A stretch of DNA of 52,881 bases, taken from IMG/VR virus record IMGVR_UViG_3300020446_000014, positions 1 to 52,881 of that record. One strand, written 5' to 3'. Under the pieces are notes generated by a model that did no database searches, had not been told where the DNA came from, and saw only the letters and a list, made by a program, of their open reading frames with translations. Both the position numbers and the translations under genes were made by a program. How positions within the stretch are numbered: position 1 is the first letter of the stretch; each line of letters begins with the position of its first letter. Below are positions 1-37,466 of this stretch, in pieces. Source of the stretch: a virus. Its lineage: Duplodnaviria; Caudoviricetes.

Positions 1-3000
1 ATAAGCCGGGAAAGACAAATCTCACATCACCGGGTGCGGATGTGAAGGATCCTGCAGCACCCGATACGGATTCCAAGTCGGAAGATGGTTCTTTGGAATA
101 TACAGGTTCTGAACCTTTTAAAGATTTTAAAGAAAAAAAATCAGTAATAACAGAAGAAGGTGAAGCAGAATTAAGACAACTTGGAGATGGTGAATTTCAA
201 CCTATTGAGCTAGAAGAGGTTGTTGTTGAAGGAGTAGACAAAACAAAAATAAGAGAAGCTAAAGAAAGAGACGCTAGAATTAAAGCTATTTCTAGTATAT
301 CAAAAATTCCTGAATTAGGTGTTTCAGTTTCAGCAGGAGTTGCAGCAACAACTTTAGATATAACAAAAGGATTTTTAGAATTAATAGATAAATATGGATC
401 AGTACCAGTTACTAATGCTATTGGTAAAGCTTTAGGGTATGACGCGACTCTTAAAGAAGATTTACAATTAAGTGCTGATAACTATGCTGCTTTTGATGAA
501 GTAACTAATTTGTTTAGAAATTATACTATTAAAAAGTTTGATGAAAAGGGCAATGAAATTGATATAGTAGGTTTACTTAAGAAAGGTGATTACGAAAATG
601 CAGCAGATTTGTCAATAAGTGAAGGTTTTAGTGCTGCACCTTATTTAGCTTTAAGTATAATAAGTCCTATTTACGGGAGTGCTTTAATTGGCGCATCTGT
701 TACCGGCCAAGAAATAGCAACAGCATTAAAAGAAAGACCTGAAGAGTCTTTATTAAAGTTATATGGAGCATCTGCTTTAAAAGGAGGTGTTGAATTTGCA
801 ACTAATGCTATAGGCGGTGGTTTACAAAGAGGATTTTTAGGAATTGGTAAAACATTAAATATAGGCACAAATGCTTATAAAAAAGCAGCAAAAGAGTTTA
901 CTAAAACTTATATGGGTAAATTTGCCTCGTCAGCAGCTGGATTAACTAAATCAGGCGCAGTAAATTTTATAGAAGAATTTTCTGCTGAAATTGGCAATTC
1001 ATTAGTTGACAATTTTGTTTATGGTGATAAACAAGAGTTTTATGCTGAAATAAGAAAAGCAACTAACGCTGGATTTGCAGGACTTGTATTAGGAGCCCCA
1101 ATAGGTGGTATTGGTGGGTTTAACTCTATAGCATCTAAAAATGAAGCTTTAAAATTTATTGCCCCTGCACAATGGAGAAAAGATTATGGCAAGTTAAGAT
1201 ATAGATTAAGTCAAGTTGAAGTAGATTTACAAAACGCACCAGAAAATAAAAAACAAAAATTTACAAAACAAAAAAGAAAGATAGAGTCTCTTATGAAAAT
1301 GAGAGAACAGCAATTAGCTGAATCTTTTAATAATTTGACTAAAAAAGAAAAGAAAACATATCTTGAAAATCTTAAAATTATTGATGATGCATTTGGCGAA
1401 ATTAATAATGATAGATACACTGATGCGCAACAATTAGAAGCTAAAGAAAGATTAGATAGAGCCGCTGCTGAAAATCAAATTTTAGTTGGACAAGAATTTG
1501 CTAATGCTGATGAAGAAATAGCATTAAGAATTATTGCAAGAGAAATAAGAAGTTCTGAAATAATAAAAGAATCACTTAAAAAAGCAAACGCTGCAGGTAT
1601 AAAAGATTTAGAAATAAAATTTGCTACTTCTGAAGATCTTAATAATCCAAGATTAGAAGGATTAAAAACAAGTGAAGGTGTTTATGATTCTAAAACTAAA
1701 ACTATATATATAAATCAAGCTATTGCTAATGAAGCTGAGCAAACAAATGTTATAGGCCATGAACTTTTGCATTATATTATGGCTCAAAAATTTGCTGTAG
1801 ATGATGCCTCTTTAGAACCTTTAGTTAATTCATTTAAAGAATATCTTAAAAAAACACAGCCTAGAATTTATGAAAAAATACAACAGCGAATTGATGAGTA
1901 TTATAGTGAAATAAATGAGGCGGGTGAAAAAGTAATTAAACAAGGAGCTCTGGAAGAATATTTTAATGTATTTTCTGATCTTGTTTCTAAAGAAAAAGTA
2001 ATTGTTAATGAAAGCTTCTCTGATAAAATAAAAAATACAACAAAAAGATTTTTAAATAGTCAAGGCTTTGGAAGTGTTGAATTAAATACAGGAAAAGAAG
2101 TTTTTGATTTTATAAGAAATTATACAAAAAATATTAAAAATTTTAACTTTAAACAATTAGGGGTAGATTTAAAATCTTCAGAAATACCTAAAAAGGTACA
2201 GGAAACAGTTAATGAAGAACAAACAAAGTTTTCTAAATCAGGAGCTTCAGAAAGAGTACAAGAAATATATGAATCTCAAGGTGCGGCTAATGCTTTAGAT
2301 ATAATAGATCAGTTTAAACCTATAACAAATAAAATAGTAAACAGATATAAAGATGTACCTGGTTTTGAATTTGAATTATTAAGAGATGAAATAGAAACAG
2401 GTAAAAGAGGTATACTTGACATGATAATGGATTACACACCTGAAAAAGCAAAAGGTGCTCCATTAGCTGCTTATATAAATAGCTTATTACCAAAAAGAGC
2501 TATTGAAGCGGCAAACCGTATATTAGACACTGAATTTAAACTTGATGTTACAGAGGCTAAAAGTGTTACTGATACAACAACAGAAGAAGTAACAGAAATA
2601 CAAGAACAAGAAACATCTGAAGAATTAAAAAGTTTACGCAAAAAAATGGGTATTGGTGATGAAATAATACCTATTGTTTTTGGAGCTGTTCAAAAAACTT
2701 TTGGCACCAAACTACCTGATATTGATGAAAAAACCTTTAAAAAAGAATTAGAAAAAAGATATAGAACAGAACTTAAAAAGCCTATTTCTAAATTATTTGG
2801 TAAAGGAGAAGCATATGAATCTTTTTTACGCGATAATTTTGAAACAATATATAATTCATTACCTCAATCTATATTTAATAAAAGATTAAAAGAATTTGCT
2901 GAGCCTGTATTAGATGAAGATGGAAAACAAAAAAGAGAAAAAACAGCTGAGGGTAATAAAATATTTACTAAGAAAAAAATATCTAAAGCTGAGTTTATAA

Positions 3001-6000
3001 AATATTTTTTAGGCAGCGACGTAGGAAGATCTACACAAGGTACAAGAAAAACAGCAATAGTAGAAGCTGTAGCAGAAGCATTTGCATTCGATGCTACCAT
3101 GGAAGTTTTATCTGATCCTGCAATTTTACAGAAAGCTGAAGATATAGCTGAATTACAAGGCAAAAAATTACCTGAAAATTTTTTAAATAAATTAAGCGAA
3201 ATAATTGATAGACCTATTAATCTTAAATTTTCTATATCTTTATCTAAAGCAATGGGATTAGAAAGCAAAGATGCTTTTTCTTATACAAACTTTAACGACG
3301 TTAATTTAGGTAGAATAGGTTATGTAGATTTATCAGAAAAAATGATAGCTGCTTATGGTATTCAAGAATTTGTAAATATTATTGATCCTCTTGTTGGCAG
3401 ACAATATAAAAGTAAAAAAGACCCTAGAGGAATTAGTGTAGCTAAAGGTATATCTGTTACAGAAGAAGAATTTAAAAAATATGAAAACGTATTTTTTGTA
3501 AGAAGTAAAATTGATGATAAATATAGAACAGCACAATTTTTAACATTAGGTAGAAAAGATTTTTACGAAAATATTTTAGCTAAAGCTATTAATAAAAAAG
3601 TAGTTTGGACTGGTAGAAGATTAATAATTGATGGTAAAGTAATTGAAAGACAAACGGTTCCACCTCAACAACCTACTAGTAAAGGAAATTATCCTGGTTT
3701 TGAAAATAAAGAAGGATGGGATGCTACTATGCCTGAAAGAGTAAATTTTGCAACAGATCAAAGAAGAGGGTTTAAAAAAATTGTAGATATGTTAAGCCTT
3801 ATATATAATAACTCAGATAAAACAAGAAATGAAGTAGCTAAAATAGGTATGATATTAAATAGTTTTAATTCAAGCACCGATGCTTTAGTTAGAACAGCTG
3901 CTATTCCTGGATTAGAAATGAGAGTTGAGGGATTAAAAAGTGATGAATATAGATACGAGCATACACAACCAGCATCTGAAACTTTAAGACAATTAGCAAA
4001 ATTAATTGTTGGAAATGAAAAAGCTCAGTCATTTGATGAAATAATGGAAAACTTTAGAGTTGCTATAATACCTAAAACATATGATGCAATTATAAATAAA
4101 ACAAAAGCTGACGGAAAAACATTACAAAGTAACTCCCCTTTAGATAGTGATGGTAATTTAATAAAACCTTCTGATCCAACTAAGCCCACAAGATATGTAG
4201 CAGCTGAAAAAGAAATTGCAGATGCTGGATTACCTCCTTTAATTTTAGAAGATTCACAATTAAAATATTCTAGATCATTAAGTAAAGAATTTAATAAATT
4301 ATTAGAACAAACTACAGGAGTTCCATTTTACGAAAAGTTTTCACCTGTTAAAGCTACAATGATGGGAAGGGGTAAAGGTAAAAAATTCTTTATACCTTAT
4401 TCAGCAGATGACTTTGTAGGTTTATTATATGCGACATTAGGCACTAAAAAGCAAGGCGGTAATGAACAAATGAAATGGTATCAAGAAAATTTACTTAGAC
4501 CATTTTCTCGCGGTATACAACAATATGAAACTGCAAAACAAGTTGCATTACGTAATTGGCAAGTTCTTAAGAAAGAAGCTAAAAAAAATGTACCTGGTGG
4601 TTTAAATAAAGTCAATGAAACCGGATTTACAAATCAAAATTCATTAAGAGTTTATATGTGGCGTAAACAAGGTATAAAAGATAAAGATATACCTGGAATA
4701 AGCTCGCAAGAATTAAGAGATAATAGTAGAATAGTAAGAAATAATCCTAAGCTAAAAGCTTTTGCTGAAAGATTAATGGCTTTAAACCCTGAAGGTTATC
4801 CTCCGCCATCTACAGAATGGATAGCTGGTGATATTACTACTGATTTAGTTTCTTATATAAATGATGTAAAGAGAGCTGAATATTTAACTCAATGGAAAGA
4901 AAATGTTGATCAAATATTTAATGATCAAAATAAAAACAAGTTAAAAGCATTATACGGTGAATCATATATTAAAGCATTAGAAAACATGCTTTATAGAATG
5001 GAAAAGGGTAGAAATAAATTTAAAGATGCTAGCGATATTGAAAGAAAGTTTCAAACATGGACTAACAATTCTGTAGGTACTATAATGTTCTTTAACGCTA
5101 GGTCTGCTGTACTGCAAACATTATCTGCTGTTAACTTTATAAACTTTAGTGATAATAATCCAATTGCTGCGGGTATAGCATTAGCTAATTTTCCGCAGTA
5201 TGTAAAAGATTTTTCAACATTATTTAATTCAGACTTTTTAAAACAAAGACGTTCTGGTTTACAAACTGATGTAAATGCTGATGAAATTGCAAAAGCAGCA
5301 GCTACATCTAAAAACCAAGTACAAGCAATGCTTGCTGCAATACTTAAGTTTGGATTTACACCAACACAAATTGCTGACTCATTTGCTATTGCTTCAGGTG
5401 GTGCTACGTTTTATAGAAACAGAATAAACAAATACAAAAAAGAAGGATTAAGTCAAAAAGAAGCAGAACAAAAAGCATTTACAGACTTTCAAGAAATAGC
5501 AGAAGAAACACAACAGTCTGCTAGGCCTGATAGAATATCTATGCAACAAGCAGGTTCATTAGGTAGACTTGTATTAGCATTTGGTAACACTCCAATGCAA
5601 TATGCAAGGCTTACAAAAAAGGCTACATTAGATTTAATTAATGGAAGAGGAGATTGGAAGACAAATATAAGTAAGATTGCGTATTATAGTGTAATACAGA
5701 ATATTATATTCTCCGCTTTACAACAAGGACTATTTGCACTGCTATTTGATGATGAAGAAGAAGATGATAAGAAAGCAAGATATTATAGAATAGGTAATAG
5801 TAGTGCTGATACATTATTAAGAGGTATGGGGGTTTATGGTGCTGCCGCGGCAACAGTTAAGAATATGATTATCAAGATAGTAGAAGAAGCTAAAAAATCT
5901 AGGCCTGATTATACTAAAGTTGCAATAGAAGCAACAGCCATATCACCGCCTATAAACTCTAAATTAAGAAAACTTGTTTCAGCTGGTAAAACATTTACAT

Positions 6001-6314
6001 ATAAGCAATCAAAAGAAAAAGTATTTACAGAAGGATTTAGTTTAGATAATCCAGCTTTTTTAGCCGCTGGAAAAGTAATTTCTGCTGGAACTAATTTACC
6101 CGCTGACCGTATAGTTTTAAAAATGGATCACATATATACAGCAATGCAACCTGAAACAGAACTTTGGCAAGGTACTGCATTAATGCTTGGATGGGGTGAA
6201 TGGGAATTAGGTATGATAGAAAAGCAAACCAAAAAAGAAAGTAAAGCAAAGTCCTTTTTGAAAACAAAAAAATTAAAAAGTGGTTTAAAAAGAAAAAAAT
6301 TAAAAACAAAATGA
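1..6314 (+). CDS. Giant multidomain virion/ejection (polyvalent) protein, 5'-truncated; zincin metallopeptidase, sigma70 region-2-like segment, EHxxP nuclease-like segment, helical C-terminal domain
   Basis: Frame is open from the window edge (KPGKTNLTSPGADVK before the GTG at 42). GVYD..TKTIYIN..VIGHELLH zincin motif at 1758-1772 with downstream EE. Sigma-like stretch at 2301-2525. Lies at the end of the structural operon. Confidence 0.75.
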   Translation, partial: KPGKTNLTSPGADVKDPAAPDTDSKSEDGSLEYTGSEPFKDFKEKKSVITEEGEAELRQLGDGEFQPIELEEVVVEGVDKTKIREAKERDARIKAISSISKIPELGVSVSAGVAATTLDITKGFLELIDKYGSVPVTNAIGKALGYDATLKEDLQLSADNYAAFDEVTNLFRNYTIKKFDEKGNEIDIVGLLKKGDYENAADLSISEGFSAAPYLALSIISPIYGSALIGASVTGQEIATALKERPEESLLKLYGASALKGGVEFATNAIGGGLQRGFLGIGKTLNIGTNAYKKAAKEFTKTYMGKFASSAAGLTKSGAVNFIEEFSAEIGNSLVDNFVYGDKQEFYAEIRKATNAGFAGLVLGAPIGGIGGFNSIASKNEALKFIAPAQWRKDYGKLRYRLSQVEVDLQNAPENKKQKFTKQKRKIESLMKMREQQLAESFNNLTKKEKKTYLENLKIIDDAFGEINNDRYTDAQQLEAKERLDRAAAENQILVGQEFANADEEIALRIIAREIRSSEIIKESLKKANAAGIKDLEIKFATSEDLNNPRLEGLKTSEGVYDSKTKTIYINQAIANEAEQTNVIGHELLHYIMAQKFAVDDASLEPLVNSFKEYLKKTQPRIYEKIQQRIDEYYSEINEAGEKVIKQGALEEYFNVFSDLVSKEKVIVNESFSDKIKNTTKRFLNSQGFGSVELNTGKEVFDFIRNYTKNIKNFNFKQLGVDLKSSEIPKKVQETVNEEQTKFSKSGASERVQEIYESQGAANALDIIDQFKPITNKIVNRYKDVPGFEFELLRDEIETGKRGILDMIMDYTPEKAKGAPLAAYINSLLPKRAIEAANRILDTEFKLDVTEAKSVTDTTTEEVTEIQEQETSEELKSLRKKMGIGDEIIPIVFGAVQKTFGTKLPDIDEKTFKKELEKRYRTELKKPISKLFGKGEAYESFLRDNFETIYNSLPQSIFNKRLKEFAEPVLDEDGKQKREKTAEGNKIFTKKKISKAEFIKYFLGSDVGRSTQGTRKTAIVEAVAEAFAFDATMEVLSDPAILQKAEDIAELQGKKLPENFLNKLSEIIDRPINLKFSISLSKAMGLESKDAFSYTNFNDVNLGRIGYVDLSEKMIAAYGIQEFVNIIDPLVGRQYKSKKDPRGISVAKGISVTEEEFKKYENVFFVRSKIDDKYRTAQFLTLGRKDFYENILAKAINKKVVWTGRRLIIDGKVIERQTVPPQQPTSKGNYPGFENKEGWDATMPERVNFATDQRRGFKKIVDMLSLIYNNSDKTRNEVAKIGMILNSFNSSTDALVRTAAIPGLEMRVEGLKSDEYRYEHTQPASETLRQLAKLIVGNEKAQSFDEIMENFRVAIIPKTYDAIINKTKADGKTLQSNSPLDSDGNLIKPSDPTKPTRYVAAEKEIADAGLPPLILEDSQLKYSRSLSKEFNKLLEQTTGVPFYEKFSPVKATMMGRGKGKKFFIPYSADDFVGLLYATLGTKKQGGNEQMKWYQENLLRPFSRGIQQYETAKQVALRNWQVLKKEAKKNVPGGLNKVNETGFTNQNSLRVYMWRKQGIKDKDIPGISSQELRDNSRIVRNNPKLKAFAERLMALNPEGYPPPSTEWIAGDITTDLVSYINDVKRAEYLTQWKENVDQIFNDQNKNKLKALYGESYIKALENMLYRMEKGRNKFKDASDIERKFQTWTNNSVGTIMFFNARSAVLQTLSAVNFINFSDNNPIAAGIALANFPQYVKDFSTLFNSDFLKQRRSGLQTDVNADEIAKAAATSKNQVQAMLAAILKFGFTPTQIADSFAIASGGATFYRNRINKYKKEGLSQKEAEQKAFTDFQEIAEETQQSARPDRISMQQAGSLGRLVLAFGNTPMQYARLTKKATLDLINGRGDWKTNISKIAYYSVIQNIIFSALQQGLFALLFDDEEEDDKKARYYRIGNSSADTLLRGMGVYGAAAATVKNMIIKIVEEAKKSRPDYTKVAIEATAISPPINSKLRKLVSAGKTFTYKQSKEKVFTEGFSLDNPAFLAAGKVISAGTNLPADRIVLKMDHIYTAMQPETELWQGTALMLGWGEWELGMIEKQTKKESKAKSFLKTKKLKSGLKRKKLKTK

Positions 6315-11041: not shown

Positions 11042-11067
11042 AAGGGGCTTTGCGGCCCCTTTTTTTT
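11042..11067. terminator. Intrinsic terminator between convergent operons
   Basis: AAGGGGC-TTTGCG-GCCCCTT followed by a T run, at the junction of the + structural and - nrdA units. Confidence 0.85.
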
Positions 11068-12808
11068 ATCCATCACACGATATGCAATCAGGATTCATAG
11101 CGTTTGCGGCTATATCACCGCGAAGTACAGATTCTGTTCTCATATAATATAAGGTTTTTATACCTCGTTTCCATGCTTCTAAATGTACTTTATTAATCCA
11201 TTTAGGTTCAGCAACAGAAGGAAACGCTAAATTTAAACTTACAGATTGATCTATATAATCTTGTCTTATACCTGCTTGACCTATTAATTCTAATTGATTT
11301 ATTTCTTTAAATGTTTTAAATACATTTTTTACAGGCTCACCATCTTCTTCGGTAAGTCTTCCTGAGTGATCGTAATACCATCCATCGAGTTTTTTAATTC
11401 CTTGAACGGATCCACCGTCTTCCAAAATTTTATCCCAAGTTTCTTTATTGTCGATTCCAATTTTTCTTAATATTTTTTTAAGTTCTTTATTTTTTCTAAT
11501 AAATGTTCCCTTAGCTGATTGTTCAGTAAACACATTAGCCGCCCAAGGTTCAATACCAGGTGATACATTACCCGATAGCTTACTATTTGAAACCGTTGGA
11601 GCTATTGATCTTAAATGTGTATTTCTAAAACCTGTACCAACACACCATAAAGGTTCACCATATATTTCAGCTAAAGCTCTTGAAGCTCTTTCAGTTTCAA
11701 TTTTTATTTTTGAAAATATTTCCCGCGTTTTGAATTGCGCTAATAAACCTTCGAAAGCTATTCCCTTTTTCTGTAATAGGCTGTGCCACCCAAGGACACC
11801 TAATCCAAGTGCCCTCCCTTTTTCCGCACTGCGTACAGAGTTCTCGAATCCCTTCATATTCTTTGCTCGTTGAATAAATTCTTCCAGCACACCGTCCAGG
11901 AACCAAGTTGCGTCGTAAATTAAATTCGTATTCTTCCATTCGTCGTATTTATCTAAATTTAAAGATGACAAGCAACAAACAAATGAATGTGACTCGTCAG
12001 TATGTAATGTTATTTCACTACATATGTTTGTCATATGAACTTTAAGTCCATTTGACTTATACGCTTTTGGGTTACTTTTGTTTGTATTTCCCTTAAATAA
12101 GATATAAGGTTCTCCAGTTGCTTTACGTTTCTGGAGTAGCTTACCCCACTTTCTTCTAGCGTCTTTATCTCCTCTATCAAGTTTTCGCATAAACTTGTCG
12201 CCGACCACAGCGCACTGGTGGAGATTGAGGGATTGTCTATTGACATCGCCTTTCGGTTCTCTGATCTCCAACCATTCTTCAAAGTCGGAATGATCAATAT
12301 TGATATTAACTGATGCAGCTCCTCTGCGGACAGATCCTTGATTAGTGGCGAGTATTGTTGAATCATAGATTTTGCAAAAAGGCACCACGCCGTCACTTGT
12401 TCCATTACCTGTAATTTTAGCTCCAGCGGGTCTAATCATATTAACTCCTATTCCAACACCGCCGCCATGCTTGGCTAAGAGCATCATTTCTAAATTTTTA
12501 TTCCCTATATCTTGTATACTATCTGCAACATCAATACCAAAACAACTAATAGGCAAACCTCTGTCTGTGCCTGTATTAGACAACACTGGTGAAGCTAAAC
12601 ACAACCAACCATCCCATATGTACTGGAAAAATTTATCGGCCATTTCAGGCTTATATAAACGCCTCGCAACAGTTTTTGCAACACGCATATACGCTTCTTT
12701 AGGTGACTCACCGTTGTATAAATAACCACCAGCTATTGTTTTTTTATAGACATCTGTATCTCCCCATACAGGATAGTCTTCACCTTTTTTCCAGTTACTA
12801 TTCCACAT
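11066..12808 (-). CDS. nrdA: Ribonucleotide reductase class I alpha subunit (short, no ATP cone)
   Basis: PISCF, TNICSEI, IAPTVSNS, KTLYY motifs and C-terminal CISC pair. Confidence 0.95.
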   Translation of the reverse strand: MWNSNWKKGEDYPVWGDTDVYKKTIAGGYLYNGESPKEAYMRVAKTVARRLYKPEMADKFFQYIWDGWLCLASPVLSNTGTDRGLPISCFGIDVADSIQDIGNKNLEMMLLAKHGGGVGIGVNMIRPAGAKITGNGTSDGVVPFCKIYDSTILATNQGSVRRGAASVNINIDHSDFEEWLEIREPKGDVNRQSLNLHQCAVVGDKFMRKLDRGDKDARRKWGKLLQKRKATGEPYILFKGNTNKSNPKAYKSNGLKVHMTNICSEITLHTDESHSFVCCLSSLNLDKYDEWKNTNLIYDATWFLDGVLEEFIQRAKNMKGFENSVRSAEKGRALGLGVLGWHSLLQKKGIAFEGLLAQFKTREIFSKIKIETERASRALAEIYGEPLWCVGTGFRNTHLRSIAPTVSNSKLSGNVSPGIEPWAANVFTEQSAKGTFIRKNKELKKILRKIGIDNKETWDKILEDGGSVQGIKKLDGWYYDHSGRLTEEDGEPVKNVFKTFKEINQLELIGQAGIRQDYIDQSVSLNLAFPSVAEPKWINKVHLEAWKRGIKTLYYMRTESVLRGDIAANAMNPDCISCDG

Positions 12809-13276: not shown

Positions 13277-13385
13277 TATTTAAATAAGGATAAAGATGTT
13301 CTTTTTCCCAATGCATTCTGTATTCATAACCATCAGGAAATTGTTCATCACATTGACTACATTTAATTATATTTTTTTTTACCAT
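13239..13385 (-). CDS. 48-aa C2H2 zinc-finger protein, not in the ORF track
   Basis: MVKKNIIKCSQCDEQFPDGYEYRMHWEKEH...: C-x2-C-x3-F-x5-Y-x2-H-x4-H; start overlaps the nrdB stop. Confidence 0.65.
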   Translation of the reverse strand: MVKKNIIKCSQCDEQFPDGYEYRMHWEKEHLYPYLNNEKILKKSSKAS

Positions 13386-14347
13386 ATATCCTCAAAATCT
13401 TCTCCTTCGTTTGCTTTAGAATAATCAGTAGGCCTAACTGCAAAGAAATCAGTGTGAGTATGACCACCGGTAAGATGATAAAACCAATCGAGATTGCTTG
13501 CTGATTTTTCTTTAAAAGCAAAGTACCCCCCGAGGTCGAGGTAGCCAAGTTCTGATAACTTTTCATTAAGTCTTTTTCTAATAAATTGTTTAAGATCGTC
13601 GGCTTTAAGGTTTTCAATATCACCTTGTTCGAACATTTTATCAATGTATCGCTCTTCTGCTTCAAGCATTGTTTCTGCTGCTTTAATAACATCTTCTCTA
13701 CAATCTTCTAATAATGTTTTATTTTCTTGACACATATGTCTAAATAATTGACAACCCATTCTACTATGTAATGATTCATCTCTTACAGACCATTTCATTT
13801 GTTGTCCAATACCCTTGAGTAAATTACGTAATTGGAAGCTATAAAGAACAGCAAAAGCAGAATAGAGACTAACTCCCTCTGCGAATGCACTAAATATTGC
13901 CAATGATCTACCAATACCCACGGGATCGTTACCATCGTAAGCAACGAGATTATCAAATCTATCAGCCGTTGTCGGCTCATGTAAAAATGCTTCAAAGTTT
14001 TCAAGTCCTAAAGTTTCGTTTAAATAACTATATGCAACCGCATGAATAGTTTCTTGTGATCCAAACATCATTGCCATTTGTTGTATTTCATGCTTCGGAA
14101 ACCATGATACAACTTTTTGTGTCCAGTAATCAGACACCGCACACTCTGTTTGCGCAAAACCCAGTAAAATATTTCCAACCAAGTTTTTCTCTGAGTCTGT
14201 AAGCTTTTCGTTCCAATCCTTGACATCACCTGACATTGGTATCTCGGTATGTAACCAGAACGCTTGAGCTTGTTTAAGCCATCCCTCAGTATAGTATTCG
14301 GGGTATTCAAATGGTTTATACGGTATTCTTTCATCAAATAATCCCAT
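13379..14347 (-). CDS. nrdB: Ribonucleotide reductase class I beta subunit
   Basis: Start reassigned to MGLFDERI (14347); ETIHAVAY, EGVSLYSAF, RDESLH, DFF.VRPTDY motifs. Confidence 0.95.
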   Translation of the reverse strand: MGLFDERIPYKPFEYPEYYTEGWLKQAQAFWLHTEIPMSGDVKDWNEKLTDSEKNLVGNILLGFAQTECAVSDYWTQKVVSWFPKHEIQQMAMMFGSQETIHAVAYSYLNETLGLENFEAFLHEPTTADRFDNLVAYDGNDPVGIGRSLAIFSAFAEGVSLYSAFAVLYSFQLRNLLKGIGQQMKWSVRDESLHSRMGCQLFRHMCQENKTLLEDCREDVIKAAETMLEAEERYIDKMFEQGDIENLKADDLKQFIRKRLNEKLSELGYLDLGGYFAFKEKSASNLDWFYHLTGGHTHTDFFAVRPTDYSKANEGEDFEDIW

Positions 14348-14496
14348 TATATTTTTTCTATTTCTATGCATAAATCTACAAAAGGTAGATAAAACACGTG
14401 TTGTACATAATCTTTTTCTACATAAGATCTCATACCAAGCAATATACCTGGATATAGTCCTATAGTTATTTCCCAATTATCTGGAACTAATCTCAT
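14347..14496 (-). CDS. Hypothetical protein, 49 aa (MRLVPDNWEITIGLYPGILLG...HVFYLPFVD)
   Basis: Complete ORF with TAATG coupling to nrdB; explains the spurious N-terminal extension in the track. Confidence 0.65.
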   Translation of the reverse strand: MRLVPDNWEITIGLYPGILLGMRSYVEKDYVQHVFYLPFVDLCIEIEKI

Positions 14497-24321: not shown

Positions 24322-24472
24322 TTCTTTTTAATTATAGTTAAACCTTTTTTTCCAAAAGTATTTTTATATCCAAATTCATAGCCATCAGCTAATTCATATT
24401 TGATATTTTTTGCTGGAGGTATATTAGCACGACCTCCCATATATTTATCTATGAGGTATTGTTCTATATTCA

Positions 24473-24733
24473 TTATGATAATTGTTTTGCTTTATAAACT
24501 GTATATGGTTCAAGGGATTTAATTGGCATCCTATATTTAGATTCATCAATAAGTTTAGCCATTCTAATCCATACTCTTAAGTCTCTAATGTCACCCATAA
24601 TTCTTTTATAATTTAATTCAGGCCACATACCTTTGTGTCTTTCTTTAAACCCTTCTCGTATATTCAAACGGTAGTTAGCTATTTTTGATATGAGCATTGA
24701 TTCAATGCGATCGTCTATATATGTGTTATCCAT
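24473..24733 (-). CDS. Hypothetical protein
   Basis: 86-aa ORF downstream of the tRNA. Confidence 0.55.
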   Translation of the reverse strand: MDNTYIDDRIESMLISKIANYRLNIREGFKERHKGMWPELNYKRIMGDIRDLRVWIRMAKLIDESKYRMPIKSLEPYTVYKAKQLS

Positions 24734-24753
24734 TTTATTTAATTTAAAATTAG

Positions 24754-24826
24754 TTGCGCGGGCAGGATTCGAACCTGCGACCTCAGGGTTATGAGCCCTG
24801 CGAGCTGGCCACTGCTCTACCGCGCT
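24754..24826 (-). tRNA. tRNA-Met(CAT), initiator type; CCA not encoded
   Basis: AGCGCGG acceptor stem with an unpaired 1:72 position, anticodon arm CAGGG-CTCATAA-CCCTG (three G-C pairs), T-arm GCAGG-TTCGAAT-CCTGC. Confidence 0.93.
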
Positions 24827-24830
24827 AAAA

Positions 24831-25106
24831 GTTAGGGAATTGTTTAGTTCACTGTGGGCTCGCTTCTGAACGAAGTTACATCGCCTCCCCTAAACTTTTC
24901 CCTATATAATAACAGACGAGGTAGGTTTATTTCCACAGAGCCTACATTGTCATCACTTTATGCAACCCTCACCTTTGCTTTTCGTTTACTCTCCCATGCT
25001 AGCCAAGAGGTACGCCGGTTTTTTTGGGTTACTGTGGCCCGTCTGTATAAGATGCCCGATAGCTATATTAACTGAGGGAAATTCTAAAAAACCTCAACTA
25101 CCGGGC
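24831..25106 (-). ncRNA. Putative structured ncRNA (three domains, one pseudoknot) upstream of the tRNA
   Basis: GC-enriched region with no credible ORF; several complementary arms whose mismatches read as G.U pairs on the minus strand. Confidence 0.6.
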
Positions 25107-25137
25107 GGTTGAACACACACACAATTTGAAAAAAAGT

Positions 25138-26037
25138 TTATAATTGTTGATTAAGTATATAATTAATCACTTGCTTAGGTGTGCCCGTCATTTTATTTAT
25201 TTTGCCATGTTCGTCGTGAAATTCTAATTGATAGAAAGCTGGACGGTGTATAGCAAAAGGTGTATCATATTTGTTTCCTGCCATATTATTCATCTTTAGG
25301 TATATAATCATCTTCAGGTCGGTATTCAAATTTATCTCGCACGCGACCTTTTTGACTTGGTCTAGGTATACTATAACCTACGATCGGATTTATGTTGTGG
25401 TTCCAAAAGTCCCACGGCATTTCCTTTGTTTCAATTTTATCATCTAATATTCCCATAGGGTCATTATCAAATATTTCTTGTAATATTTTATCTTTTTTAT
25501 TCTTCGTCATCTTCGTTGTCTTTATGTTCTTCAATATAATCTTGTACTTCATACTCTGGTAAGTATATGTCTATGTCTGATATGTAAATGATTGCTTCAT
25601 TCATACCGTCATCTTCACCCACTTGTTTAATACGCTCAATAACTTGTTCAAATGATGGTTCATAATAGTATACATCATATTCAAAGTCTAAGTTGTGTGG
25701 GTCTTCAGTCATAACGTGTAGGTCATACCCGTCAGCTGTGTGCCATTCACCGATTTCAAGAGCGGTGCCTGATTTCCAATCTTCAGTTATTTCAGCTACT
25801 TTTAATAGCTGTGCTAATTGTTCTATATGTGTCATTTTAATATTCTTTTAATTTTTTAATTACTAATTGTCTTATATCTGTTATTGCTTCATTAAAATAA
25901 TCATCACTGAGTTCATCAACTTCTGTACCATCAACAGCCCATGCAATGCTATTATTAATGTGTTCATTTATTACGTCAGCAACGTTTGTTGCTATTTCAT
26001 CTAATTCTTTTTTCATAATATTTAATATTCTAAGCAT
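25138..26037 (-). CDS. Cluster of four small early hypothetical genes (25138-~25284, 25286-~25513, 25497-25835, 25837-~26016)
   Basis: Tightly packed minus-strand ORFs with A-rich leaders. Confidence 0.55.
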
Positions 26038-35915: not shown

Positions 35916-37466
35916 ATGGAATTTAATCATCCGAGTGAGATTGTTAAAAATTTATCTTTTAGCAATAACGCTCAAGACAAAATTATGTCAGGAGTTGACA
36001 AATTAGCTAAAGCTGTTGCGTCTACAATGGGAGCATCTGGTAAATGCGTTATATATGAAGATGCCTTAGGTAAACCAATAGTTACAAAAGACGGAGTGAC
36101 TGTTGCAAATAGCGTTATCCTTATGGATCCCGTCGAGAATATCGGCGCAACCCTCATTAAAGAGGCAGCTCAAAAAACAGTTAAGGAAGCGGGCGACGGT
36201 ACTACTACAGCTACCGTGCTCGCACACTCCATTTTAAAAGAATACTGGAAAATAGAAGATCCAGATATAAGAAGAATAAAAGAAGATATAAATAAAGCAT
36301 CAAAAGAAATATGTGCTTATTTAGAAAAATCTTCTAAAAAAGTTACAGGCAAAATGCTAGACCATGTTGCTACTATATCAACAAATAATGATGCGACATT
36401 AGGTACTATAATAGCAGATGCTTATAATAAAGTTGGTAAAGACGGTGTTGTACTTATGGAAGAATCTGAAACAGATGAAACATATGTTGATACAGTTGAT
36501 GGTGTACAATTTGATTCAGGTTTAAAATCTCAGCATTTAATTACCGATAAAGAAAAAAATAAAGTAATACTTGAAGAGCCTTTAGTGTTGATAGTAGATT
36601 CAGAAATTGAATCAATAAGAAAAATACAAAATGTTTTAGAGTATGCTATAAAAAACAATAAACCTATATTAATAATAGGTAATGTTTCTCAACAAGTATT
36701 GTCTGCGCTTATTATGAATAAAGTAAAAGGCAATATAAAAGTAAATATAATTGATCCACCTGGTTTTTCTTCTATAAGAAAAGAGATGCTAGAAGATCTA
36801 GCAATAATAACTGGAGCTAAAGTTATTAATGAAGAATTAGGCGATGATTTAGATTTAATAAATGAAACGTGTTTAGGTATTGCATCTAAAGTTGTAACTG
36901 ATGAAAATAATACTGTTATAGCTACTAATGTAGATACTGAAGATATAAAAGAAAGAATTGCGACAATAGACAAGCAAATAAAGAATGAAAAAAATCCTTA
37001 TTCTTTAAAAAAGCTAGAACAACGTAAAGCAATGCTTTCAGGTTCTGTAGGTATTATATACGTAGGTGCTGATTCTAAAATAGAATTAAAAGAAAAAAAA
37101 GATAGAGTTGAAGACGCTATTTATGCTGTTAAAGCGGCTTTAAAAGAAGGTATTGTTTCTGGAGCTGGAATTGCACTGCACAATGCATCTAATGAAATAC
37201 AAGACGGAACAAATGGTAGAGACTTATTGTTAAATGCAATAAAATCACCATATAAAACAATTCTTGAAAACGCTGGAATATCTTATGATAATCCCACAAA
37301 AAAAGGATGGGGTAAAAATGTTGTAAATAGTGAAAGCGTTAACTTAATTAAAGAAGGAATTATTGATCCTGTATTGGTAACAAAAACTGCATTAAAAAAT
37401 GCTGTATCAGTTGCCACAACAATAATGTCAGCTGATTGTGTAATATCTAATGTAAGAGAACAATGA
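35916..37466 (+). CDS. groEL: Phage chaperonin GroEL
   Basis: VTKDGVTVA, AGDGTTTATVLA, KDRVEDA, GIIDP..VTK; no GGM tail. Confidence 0.97.
   Translation: MEFNHPSEIVKNLSFSNNAQDKIMSGVDKLAKAVASTMGASGKCVIYEDALGKPIVTKDGVTVANSVILMDPVENIGATLIKEAAQKTVKEAGDGTTTATVLAHSILKEYWKIEDPDIRRIKEDINKASKEICAYLEKSSKKVTGKMLDHVATISTNNDATLGTIIADAYNKVGKDGVVLMEESETDETYVDTVDGVQFDSGLKSQHLITDKEKNKVILEEPLVLIVDSEIESIRKIQNVLEYAIKNNKPILIIGNVSQQVLSALIMNKVKGNIKVNIIDPPGFSSIRKEMLEDLAIITGAKVINEELGDDLDLINETCLGIASKVVTDENNTVIATNVDTEDIKERIATIDKQIKNEKNPYSLKKLEQRKAMLSGSVGIIYVGADSKIELKEKKDRVEDAIYAVKAALKEGIVSGAGIALHNASNEIQDGTNGRDLLLNAIKSPYKTILENAGISYDNPTKKGWGKNVVNSESVNLIKEGIIDPVLVTKTALKNAVSVATTIMSADCVISNVREQ

What the first reader, a model, noticed from the sequence alone, without database searches (positions are those of the whole stretch)
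24831..25106. Unannotated ~280-nt multi-domain RNA with a pseudoknot directly upstream of tRNA-fMet
Seen (+ coordinates, minus-strand RNA). Domain C: 25054-25063 pairs with 25097-25106, with an inner TGAGG/CCTCA stem. Domain B: closed by 24912-24920/25038-25046, containing helices 24962-24968/25026-25032 and 24921-24925/24941-24945. The loop of the latter (24933-24938) is complementary to 25032-25037, forming a pseudoknot. Domain A: 24833-24839/24898-24904 plus 24842-24847/24890-24895 and a CTTC/GAAG hairpin. The imperfect pairs I checked become G.U only on the minus strand, the strand of the tRNA. Established: phage tRNA loci often neighbour structured RNAs and ribozymes. I do not recognise this one.
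Basis: partly seen in the sequence, partly recalled or inferred. Interest (0 to 1): 0.78.

Follow-up and report, generated by a model that had tools for sequence, protein, structure and literature searches.

The report
Modular structured RNAs beside phage tRNA
The GC-rich gap upstream of a marine phage's initiator-type tRNA gene is real structured non-coding RNA, but it is a mosaic of three separately conserved, swappable RNA modules of unknown function, not one fixed 280-nt pseudoknotted molecule.

Summary
Their four imperfect pairs are G.U only on the tRNA (minus) strand. The region is non-coding, GC-rich and has no Rfam match.

It is not one conserved RNA. It is three autonomous modules.
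- Module C is a hairpin found in four lineages only.
- Module B holds a ~74-nt core found in 11 distinct versions. Its outer helix covaries strongly.
- Module A holds a 42-nt near-invariant core found in 63 distinct marine contexts. It always sits at the tip of a covarying helix.

A close relative lacks A exactly, and others carry B or A alone. In 23 of 63 contexts the A core sits inside a tmRNA-like tRNA-like domain. The window and its complete relative have no such domain.

The pseudoknot is possible but unproven. Contigs from RNA libraries of three studies cover the region.

Best reading: a co-transcribed tRNA leader made of cassette-like small RNA modules, probably protein-binding, function unknown. 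These are new RNA motifs of a known general kind.

The parts
24753..24826 (-). tRNA-Met (CAT), initiator type. It has a mismatch at the 1-72 position and three G-C pairs closing the anticodon stem.
   Evidence: ARAGORN. Rfam tRNA at 65.3 bits, with the alignment showing the 1-72 mismatch and GGG/CCC in the anticodon stem.
24827..24832 (-). 6-nt leader spacer (ACUUUU) between the last module and the tRNA 5' end. It is conserved in relatives whatever module lies upstream.
   Evidence: Sequences.
24833..24904 (-).
   Evidence: Helices checked. MFE z = -2.45. Covariance model R2 scores 81.9 bits, E 1.3e-23. The same clamp scaffold recurs in L005, L103, L155, L162 and L132, with compensatory changes.
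24848..24889 (-). A core, 42 nt. It has two invariant internal loops around an invariant GGC/GCC helix, plus the CUUC/GAAG hairpin (24872-24875/24863-24866).
   Evidence: 31 columns are invariant in 43 distinct sequences. The hairpin is 100% paired, with CG:41 and UA:2 at one pair and 5 G.U cells. RNAalifold predicts the same fold.
24912..25046 (-). A 9-bp closing helix (24912-24920/25038-25046) encloses the B core and a side hairpin (24921-24925/24941-24945). The hairpin loop (24933-24938) is complementary to 25032-25037.
   Evidence: The extension occurs only in the window, L002/L003 and L005 lineages. The L005 substitutions in the closing helix and in 25032-25037 keep pairing through wobble.
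24960..25033 (-). B core: outer helix P1, an A-rich strand, P2, hairpin P3, a second A-rich strand, and an invariant UGA.
   Evidence: Covariance model R1 scores 100.3 bits. There are 11 distinct homologues. 6 of 8 P1 pairs change on both sides. Covariation score is 0.402 against 0.188 in shuffles, reached by 0 of 500.
25054..25106 (-).
   Evidence: MFE z = -4.23, 0 of 200 shuffles. Found only in four lineages. The inner stem shows one compensatory change in L012 (CGAGG/CCUCG) and one break in L005.

Best explanation
The 24833-25106 gap encodes, on the tRNA strand, three autonomous structured RNA modules (C, B, A) lying head to tail upstream of an initiator-type tRNA-Met.

Each module is closed by its own terminal helix. 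Related marine phages, probably phages of Flavobacteriia, gain, lose or swap the modules as cassettes.

The module next to the tRNA sits in a conserved 'clamp' stem 6 nt from the tRNA 5' end (5' strand UAGGGnn, 3' strand nnCCCUA). In relatives the same clamp holds either the A core or the B core.

I read the array as a leader transcribed together with the tRNA. RNase P cleavage at the tRNA 5' end would free it as one or several stable small RNAs. The near-invariant internal loops of these RNAs would act in trans as protein-binding (decoy or aptamer-like) elements.

In other phages the A core is displayed at the tip of an alanine-identity, tmRNA-like tRNA-like domain. For that reason the likeliest field of action is the host translation or ribosome-rescue machinery.

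Shown: non-coding status, strand, modularity, covariation of the A-enclosing helix and of B P1, and absence from Rfam and from bacterial genomes.
Inferred: co-transcription and release by RNase P.
Speculative: protein binding and the target.
For: Non-coding status:
- No frame stays open across the homologues on either strand.
- There is no Pfam hit for the 3 local ORFs.
- GC is 0.42-0.54 here against 0.22-0.35 in the flanks.

Strand:
- In the structural alignments G.U cells outnumber A.C cells, 26 to 2 for A and 22 to 7 for B.

Modularity:
- L002 has C and B joined directly to the tRNA leader, with A missing.
- L012 has C plus a minimal B. L007 has B and then A inside a tRNA-like domain. L025, L018 and L037 have the A core alone.
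- Model R1 (B) hits the window and 7 of 48 relatives. Model R2 (A) hits the window and 6 of 48.

A core:
- It is found in 10 IMG/VR and 68 metagenome stretches and in 0 of the species genomes scanned.
- It occurs in 63 distinct contexts.
- The enclosing helix has a covariation score of 0.418 against 0.170 in shuffles (0 of 500). Slid registers score at most 0.139.

B core:
- P1 has 7 different sequences in 11 homologues, all paired.
- The short-form pattern has 0 hits in bacterial genomes.

Clamp:
- The same UAUAGGG...CCCUAAC stem precedes the tRNA with a B payload in L083, L090 and L012, and with an A payload in the window, L005, L103, L132 and L155.

Presence in RNA libraries:
- Short contigs (161-392 nt) from 4 runs of 3 studies lie on 24731-25107. 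Some carry C+B, some A+tRNA, and one is the A-less form.

Precedent:
- T4 carries annotated small stable RNAs rnaC and rnaD next to tRNA-Arg on the same strand.
Against: - No experiment or read-level data shows a transcript, its ends or its strand. Contigs from RNA libraries can contain DNA and cannot show ends.
- No promoter or terminator was recognised. The scan used covers sigma-70-type sites only, and the likely hosts use another promoter type.
- B modules are not more stable than shuffles (z = -0.36 and -0.48).
- P2 of the B core is poorly paired in the window's subtype in the simple register, with 3-4 of 6 pairs in 7 of 11 homologues.
- No binding protein, ligand or target is identified.
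- The link to translation rests only on the scaffold used in other phages. The window record and its complete relative have no tRNA-like domain and no SmpB.
- The near-invariance of the A core, with no intermediate forms, would also fit recent lateral spread.
Confidence: 0.5

Rival explanations
1. One reading: one ~280-nt multi-domain RNA that folds as a whole, with a loop-to-junction pseudoknot, and acts as a unit. Examples would be a ribozyme or a large functional RNA such as those found beside phage tRNAs.
For: - All helices exist.
- The identical full arrangement is kept in the complete relative L005 and in L109.
- Three L005 substitutions in B helices or the pseudoknot strand stay pairing-compatible.
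- One RNA-library contig spans C and B together.
Against: - L002/L003 lacks A exactly, and the same A-less junction appears in an RNA-library contig.
- L012 lacks the B extension and A.
- A and B occur alone in dozens of other contexts.
- The whole-region MFE is not better than shuffles.
- The pseudoknot complementarity arises in 12-17% of shuffles.
- No ribozyme or large-RNA family of Rfam matches.
Confidence: 0.12
2. A cis-acting leader. The modules, especially the clamp 6 nt from the tRNA, would control transcription, RNase P processing or stability of the initiator tRNA and have no role of their own in trans.
For: - The clamp stem and the ACUUUU spacer sit at a fixed distance from the tRNA in 8 contexts.
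- Modules are always on the tRNA strand and upstream of a tRNA or a tRNA-like domain.
Against: - The A core also occurs with no tRNA nearby, and inside tRNA-like domains (40 and 23 of 63 contexts).
- The B core in L008 and L172 is followed by neither a tRNA nor a tRNA-like domain.
- 18 of 47 relatives have the tRNA-Met, and many of them have only coding sequence upstream.
Confidence: 0.15
3. Decaying remnants. Domain A would be what is left of a tmRNA-like gene that lost its T arm and D region. The rest would be debris of recombination in a hypervariable early-region island, with no present function.
For: - The 3' end of the window's domain A resembles the 3' trailer of the tRNA-like domains.
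- The distribution is patchy.
- P2 of B is weak in the window.
Against: - The hairpin-scaffold form of A recurs in at least 5 distinct contexts with compensatory changes that keep both stems, for example GUCUAG/CUAGAU in L132.
- The core is as invariant there as inside tRNA-like domains.
- Domain A is 100% identical between the window and L005, while C and B differ at about 8 positions.
Confidence: 0.1
4. Not RNA at all: a small protein gene or a DNA-level element such as an attachment site, an origin or promoter operators.
For: - Antisense ORFs of 73 and 50 codons exist in the window.
- tRNA genes are common integration sites (established knowledge).
Against: - The ORFs are not kept in L012, L103 or L083, where the longest open stretch is at most 33 codons.
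- There is no Pfam hit.
- Covariation keeps pairing and G.U on one strand only.
- There is no integrase in the record.
- The tRNA is complete.
Confidence: 0.03

Closest known systems
Small stable RNAs of the phage T4 tRNA cluster (rnaC 'species 1', rnaD 'species 2')
   Same: Both are non-coding, structured, of unknown function, and lie head to tail with a phage tRNA on the same strand. In the T4 record rnaC is 139 nt and rnaD 119 nt, next to tRNA-Arg. That the T4 RNAs are cut out of the tRNA precursor is recalled, not checked here.
   Different: No sequence or structure likeness: models R1 and R2 give only noise on the T4 stretch, best 9.6 bits at E 0.25. The T4 RNAs lie downstream of the tRNA and these lie upstream. 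These are cassette-like and swapped between relatives.
TLD-only tmRNA of mycobacteriophage DS6A, and tmRNA generally
   Same: Relatives of this phage carry 73-126-nt RNAs with a 7-bp acceptor stem holding G3.U70, a tRNA-type T arm and a discriminator A. There are 37 distinct ones, in 16 of 48 relatives. In 11 of them the payload is the window's A core. Hudson et al. 2014 (PMC4131195, passages read) list DS6A as 'TLD only'. They note that such a molecule inhibits tmRNA, perhaps by titrating SmpB.
   Different: The window itself has no tRNA-like domain, and neither does its complete relative. The relatives' RNAs are not called by ARAGORN (0 tmRNA in 47 loci). They stay below the Rfam cut-off, at 16.8 against 47 bits, with only the 3' half aligned. 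No credible tag frame or pseudoknots were found.
Large ornate RNAs found beside tRNAs in phages (GOLLD, ROOL)
   Same: Unexplained structured RNAs that tend to neighbour tRNA genes in phage or prophage DNA. This is recalled; only the search listing was seen.
   Different: GOLLD and ROOL are single RNAs, recalled to be several hundred nt long, and each has an Rfam model. No Rfam family other than tRNA matches here. This region is made of ~55-135-nt independent units.
tRNA-scaffold display of foreign RNA (engineered), and bacterial Y RNAs with tRNA-like modules (YrlA)
   Same: Both combine a tRNA-like element with another structured RNA module. This resembles the relatives in which the A core sits at the tip of the helix that stands in for the anticodon arm. 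Both comparators are recalled.
   Different: No Rfam match at E<=10 overlaps the finding, so Y RNA models in that library did not match. In the window the payload is in a plain hairpin, not in a tRNA-like scaffold.

Membership tests
tmRNA (RF00023 and permuted forms) | tRNA-like domain: 7-bp acceptor stem with G3.U70, T arm, discriminator A | tested here: not met
   A regex scan finds 37 such domains in fetched loci and none in the window. The 3'-end pattern with up to 1 mismatch has 0 hits in the window record and 0 in the complete relative G005.
tmRNA (RF00023 and permuted forms) | Score at or above the Rfam gathering cut-off, or an ARAGORN call | tested here: not met
   No tmRNA hit in the window at gathering score, and none at E<=10 in 24500-25400. 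ARAGORN calls only the tRNA.
tmRNA (RF00023 and permuted forms) | mRNA-like domain with a resume codon, tag frame and stop | tested here: inconclusive
   The A core contains GCG-AUG-UAA (ACG or AGG as the second codon in some copies) and a longer frame ending in the enclosing helix. The core is equally invariant in 40 of 63 contexts without a tRNA-like domain. The long frame has no nearby stop in L055 and L061. This is not convincing as a tag.
tRNA or pseudo-tRNA array | Cloverleaf recognised by ARAGORN or Rfam RF00005 | tested here: not met
   Only 24753-24826 is recognised.
Any Rfam 15 family, including self-cleaving ribozymes, riboswitches, Y RNA, GOLLD and ROOL | Covariance-model match | tested here: not met
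   At gathering score only tRNA matches. At E<=10 over 24500-25400 there are 4 further matches (E 0.87-3.9). One is antisense to the tRNA and three lie outside 24831-25106.
T4 rnaC / rnaD | Homology in sequence or structure | tested here: not met
   Models R1 and R2 with filters off on the T4 tRNA cluster give a best score of 9.6 bits, E 0.25, with scattered placements.
T4 rnaC / rnaD | Small non-coding RNA adjacent to, and on the same strand as, a phage tRNA gene | tested here: met
   Window layout compared with the T4 annotation. This is a likeness of kind, not of family.
Kink-turn motif (recalled consensus: 3-nt bulge followed by tandem G.A / A.G between two helices) | Bulge plus tandem sheared G.A pairs in the right polarity | tested here: inconclusive
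   By eye on alignment A1, the loop 5' GAN-GUAA / 3' NGA next to GGC/GCC has the polarity and the first G.A. It has U where the consensus has A. The other loop could form tandem G.A pairs but with a 6-nt bulge. No structural test was possible.

The most novel reading that the evidence does not exclude
A group of marine phages, probably of Flavobacteriia, runs a cassette system for small RNAs. Conserved scaffolds display interchangeable, highly conserved 'payload' motifs, including the A core, the B core and several others seen in relatives.

Two scaffolds are seen. One is an alanine-identity tmRNA-like tRNA-like domain that would depend on host SmpB. The other is a clamp stem abutting the initiator tRNA.

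The payloads would bind or decoy host translation, ribosome-rescue or defence proteins. Under this reading the window shows the clamp version, with two payloads in tandem.
Probability: 0.25. Interest if true: 0.85.

Novelty: new variant of a known kind. Interest (0 to 1): 0.6.

Why it matters
Phage tRNA loci are known to hold unexplained stable RNAs, but few have been defined by comparative evidence. This work defines two new RNA motifs.
- The A core occurs in 63 contexts and the B core in 11 versions.
- Both have covariation support, no Rfam family, and no exact-pattern match in one genome each of 185,579 bacterial and archaeal species.
- Both behave as exchangeable cassettes.

In related phages the same A core is mounted on a tmRNA-like tRNA-like domain. 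This links the motifs to ribosome rescue, a process phages are known to depend on or interfere with. It also gives a concrete, testable handle for follow-up work. Candidate tests are alanylation, SmpB and EF-Tu binding, RNase P processing, and pull-downs with a 42-nt invariant RNA.

If the payload idea holds, it would be a new way for phages to package trans-acting RNAs.

Tried and rejected
- **Phage isolates:** blastn of 24700-25200 against 50,697 phage records matched 273 records. All 40 listed rows covered only query positions 36-141 (the tRNA), and 0 records covered 80% or more. No isolate genome helped.
- **Kin search:** I used the search for related loci instead.
- **Loose B-core pattern:** it gave 41 IMG/VR stretches, but most were chance hits in coding DNA. 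Only about 8 contigs were real. A second pattern added one real hit (L172) and one chance hit (L171).
- **Promoters and terminators:** the sigma-70 promoter and intrinsic terminator scan found 3 weak promoter-like sites (shuffles average 5.3) and 0 terminators. This is uninformative, and the likely hosts use other promoters.
- **Coverage gaps in RNA libraries:** the RNA-library contigs leave the flanking ORFs (24400-24730 and 25114-25400) uncovered. By the tool's own caution a part without cover proves nothing, so I do not count this as evidence of a discrete RNA.
- **Splicing of domain A:** I considered whether the A-less junction in an RNA-library contig (24833 joined to 24912) is RNA splicing. 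I rejected this because the same junction exists in a DNA contig, L002/L003.
- **A core as a minimal tmRNA tag (GCG-AUG-UAA):** not adopted (see membership test).
- **A core resembling 5S rRNA loop C:** this was an impression from memory. No 5S hit appears at E<=10, so I dropped it.
- **Module X of relatives as a hammerhead (it contains CUGACGAG):** rejected by eye, because that stretch is the conserved loop of a small covarying hairpin. No Rfam hit appears at gathering score in 9 loci.
- **B core as a coding tag:** frames are not conserved.
- **SmpB and integrase:** neither is found in the window record. SmpB is absent from 5 relatives' records.
- **Supplementary files of papers:** closed, and not needed for any claim here.

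Full report
**Setting**

The window is an IMG/VR virus record of 52,881 bases, estimated 83% complete. It is AT-rich. Its genes include ribonucleotide reductase, a primase-helicase, Erf, an exonuclease, a sigma-like factor and a Cpn60-type chaperonin. The primase-helicase is closest to that of Cellulophaga phage phi10:1, at 43.1% identity over 96% of the query. Phages of Tenacibaculum and Flavobacterium, and one unnamed-host phage (vB_RanS_PJN03), follow. A host among the Flavobacteriia is therefore likely, by inference.

All small ORFs around the finding are on the minus strand. ARAGORN and Rfam find one RNA gene, a tRNA-Met (CAT) at 24753-24826 on the minus strand. It has a mismatch at position 1-72 and three G-C pairs next to the anticodon loop, which makes it initiator type.

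**The observation**

The stretch between that tRNA and the next ORF (stop at 25138) has 0.42-0.54 GC against 0.22-0.35 around it. The four imperfect pairs are G.U on the minus-strand RNA and A.C on the other strand.

Thermodynamic stability is unremarkable for the whole region (z = -0.34) and for module B. It is clear for hairpin C (z = -4.23) and moderate for A (z = -2.45).

- Rfam 15 gives nothing but the tRNA at gathering score.
- At E<=10 no match overlaps 24831-25106.
- No frame is open in all homologues on either strand, and the three local ORFs have no Pfam match.
- No integrase is present.

**Relatives show a mosaic**

A neighbouring 205-aa protein brought in 48 related IMG/VR loci. 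nhmmer with the 304-nt region found the full arrangement only in L005, whose record is a complete 61,378-base genome with terminal repeats.

- L002/L003 has C and B at about 97% identity, but the tRNA leader follows B directly. A 78-nt piece holding all of domain A is absent. The same junction (24833 joined to 24912) stands in a contig of an RNA library. Because it also exists as DNA, it is a genomic variant, not splicing.
- L012 has C and a minimal B abutting the tRNA.
- L007 has B, then another module, then the A core.
- L025, L026, L018 and L037 have only the A core.

**Module A**

A gapped pattern for its core found 10 IMG/VR stretches and 68 metagenome stretches. It found none in the one-genome-per-species collection. 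This gives 63 distinct contexts.

In 43 distinct 68-nt versions, 31 columns are invariant. One further version, L170, was left out because it carries an 8-nt insertion in the hairpin. The core is always capped by a helix whose sequence differs from context to context.

- Columns 7-13 paired with 56-62 are almost always paired, with up to five pair types per position.
- The whole-structure covariation score is 0.418, against 0.170 in shuffles (0 of 500 reach it) and at most 0.139 in slid registers.
- RNAalifold predicts the same fold on its own.
- The CUUC/GAAG hairpin is 100% paired, with one double change and five G.U cells.
- The 3-bp GGC/GCC helix and both internal loops never vary, so their pairing cannot be tested.
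- The apical hairpin tolerates insertions. L170 shows this, as does a 34-nt insertion in RNA-library contigs.

A covariance model finds one copy in the window (81.9 bits) and in 6 of 48 relatives, with no weak hits.

**Scaffolds of the A core**

In 23 of 63 contexts a tRNA-type T arm follows 10-11 nt downstream. These are 102-104-nt RNAs with:
- a 7-bp acceptor stem, carrying G3.U70 in 11 of the 12 versions found (L057 has A-U at that pair);
- a D-like GG segment;
- a helix tipped by the A core;
- a T arm and a discriminator A.

I found 37 distinct RNAs of this kind (73-126 nt) that meet the G3.U70 filter, with various payloads. 11 of them carry the A core. They occur in 16 of 48 relatives, and 30 of the 37 are followed by CUAA.

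ARAGORN calls none of them (0 tmRNA in 47 loci). The Rfam tmRNA model reaches 16.8 bits against a cut-off of 47, aligning only the T arm and acceptor 3' strand with confidence. No SmpB gene is in five such records or in the window record.

Hudson et al. 2014 (PMC4131195, passages read) describe a 'TLD only' tmRNA in mycobacteriophage DS6A. They cite evidence that such a molecule inhibits tmRNA, perhaps by titrating SmpB. Buchholz et al. 2022 (PMC9004378, passages read) report tmRNA genes in 402 of 18,146 phage genomes. Bartlau et al. 2021 (PMC8776804, passages read) note one tmRNA in the flavobacterial phage Calle. None of the passages read mentions these short forms or the A core.

The window does not have this scaffold, and neither does its complete relative. 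Here the A core and its helix sit in a plain hairpin whose outer stem is 5' UAGGGAA and 3' UUCCCUA. This form recurs in L005, L103, L162, L155 and L132, always followed by UAACUU and the tRNA. It shows compensatory changes in both stems, so it is a maintained form, not debris.

**Module B**

Its core (24960-25033) has 11 distinct versions. The outer helix P1 is paired in all 11, with seven different sequences.

- 6 of 8 P1 pairs change on both sides.
- The whole-structure covariation score is 0.402 against 0.188 in shuffles (0 of 500) and at most 0.081 in slid registers. That alignment was fitted to the model, which favours the structure somewhat.
- P3 is 97.7% paired, with one-sided changes only.
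- P2 is a perfect 6-bp helix in 4 of 11 versions (two sequence types). In the window's subtype (7 of 11) only 3-4 of 6 pairs form in that register.
- By eye, the window's subtype reads better as CC/GG, a 1x3 loop, then GC/GC. This matches a small hairpin module seen as a payload in some tRNA-like domains. I offer this as an inference.

The short-form pattern has no hit in bacterial genomes.

The window's B is an extended form. A 9-bp closing helix encloses the core plus a side hairpin. This extension exists only in the window, L002/L003 and L005 lineages.

Between the window and L005 there are about eight substitutions in C and B. Four fall in proposed helices. Three of those stay paired through wobble: the closing helix, the strand 25032-25037, and P1. 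One breaks a pair in the inner stem of C. L012 carries the compensated form of that C pair.

**The pseudoknot**

The 6-nt complementarity is real. The L005 change keeps it as U.G. However, there is no double compensatory change and there are only three lineages. Comparable complementarity appears in 12-17% of shuffles. The same six bases could also extend the closing helix if the side hairpin opens. It remains a reasonable but untested proposal.

**Strand and expression**

G.U cells outnumber A.C cells 26 to 2 for A and 22 to 7 for B in the structural alignments. This fixes the RNA strand as that of the tRNA.

The sequence occurs in marine DNA runs of several studies. Four RNA-library runs from three studies hold short contigs on 24731-25107:
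- one of 263 nt on C+B, in the L005 variant;
- one of 177 nt lying wholly within C+B;
- one with the A-less junction;
- two with A+tRNA in another context;
- two carrying an A core variant in yet another scaffold.

Such contigs can include DNA and cannot show ends or strand. I count this as weak support for transcription.

**How it most likely works**

Three things are shown.
- The region holds three autonomous, structured, non-coding units on the tRNA strand.
- Two of them are members of wider motif families under strong constraint.
- Both families are restricted to marine viral sequence.

The unit next to the tRNA uses a conserved clamp (5' UAUAGGG, 3' CCCUAAC) that in other phages holds the B core instead. 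This points to cassette exchange at conserved scaffolds.

Two further steps are inferred. First, the array is transcribed with the tRNA and freed when RNase P cuts the tRNA 5' end, as recalled for the T4 tRNA cluster. The T4 record does annotate two small stable RNAs beside tRNA-Arg, but they are unrelated to A and B. Second, the invariant internal loops of the A core, with an apical loop that tolerates insertions, look like a protein-binding or tertiary-contact surface rather than a coding or base-pairing element.

Because other phages mount the same core on an alanine-identity tRNA-like domain, the translation or ribosome-rescue machinery is the most likely field of action. This last step is speculation.

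**Verdict**

In kind it belongs with the unexplained small RNAs of phage tRNA loci. In detail the motifs and their cassette behaviour are new.

Noticed in passing
L059:522-624 (also L007:1240-1341, L057:2262-2365 and others): There are 73-126-nt tmRNA-like tRNA-like domains with G3.U70, a T arm and a discriminator A, but with no recognisable tag frame or pseudoknots. They carry varied payload hairpins. 37 distinct ones were found, in 16 of 48 relatives. ARAGORN and Rfam do not call them, and their records hold no SmpB gene.
   Followed up: partly
L007:1162-1240; L090 and L006 equivalents; L020 and L030 upstream of the tRNA-like domain: Further conserved RNA modules are shuffled in the same islands. 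One has a covarying closing stem, a small hairpin with the loop UGACGA, and the motif AUACUAGUUA. Two others (starting GCUAGACGAGUAG..., or containing UAACAGUAAAUCGACGCC...) occur in different orders in L020, L030 and L042.
   Followed up: no
window 24867-24870 (table 5c): RNA-library contigs of runs X16 and X17 (depth 23.8 and 13.7) carry an A core whose apical hairpin is replaced by 34 other letters. It sits in a different scaffold. The apical loop is therefore a tolerated insertion point.
   Followed up: no
window 35916-37466 (+): Phage-encoded Cpn60/GroEL-type chaperonin of 516 aa (PF00118, E 7.4e-48).
   Followed up: no
window 11066-12808 (-) and 13379-14476 (-): Ribonucleotide reductase large and small subunits (PF02867 at E 3.3e-87; PF00268 at E 1.6e-57).
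   Followed up: no
window 3-6314 (+): An ORF of 2103 codons runs off the 5' end of the record. It was not examined.
   Followed up: no
window 25107-25137 and the equivalent in L004, L006, L007, L008, L172: A T-run followed by a GT-rich stretch (TTTTTTTCAAA...GTGTGTGT) directly precedes the first RNA module in several relatives. It may be the promoter region. The scan used covers sigma-70-type sites only.
   Followed up: no
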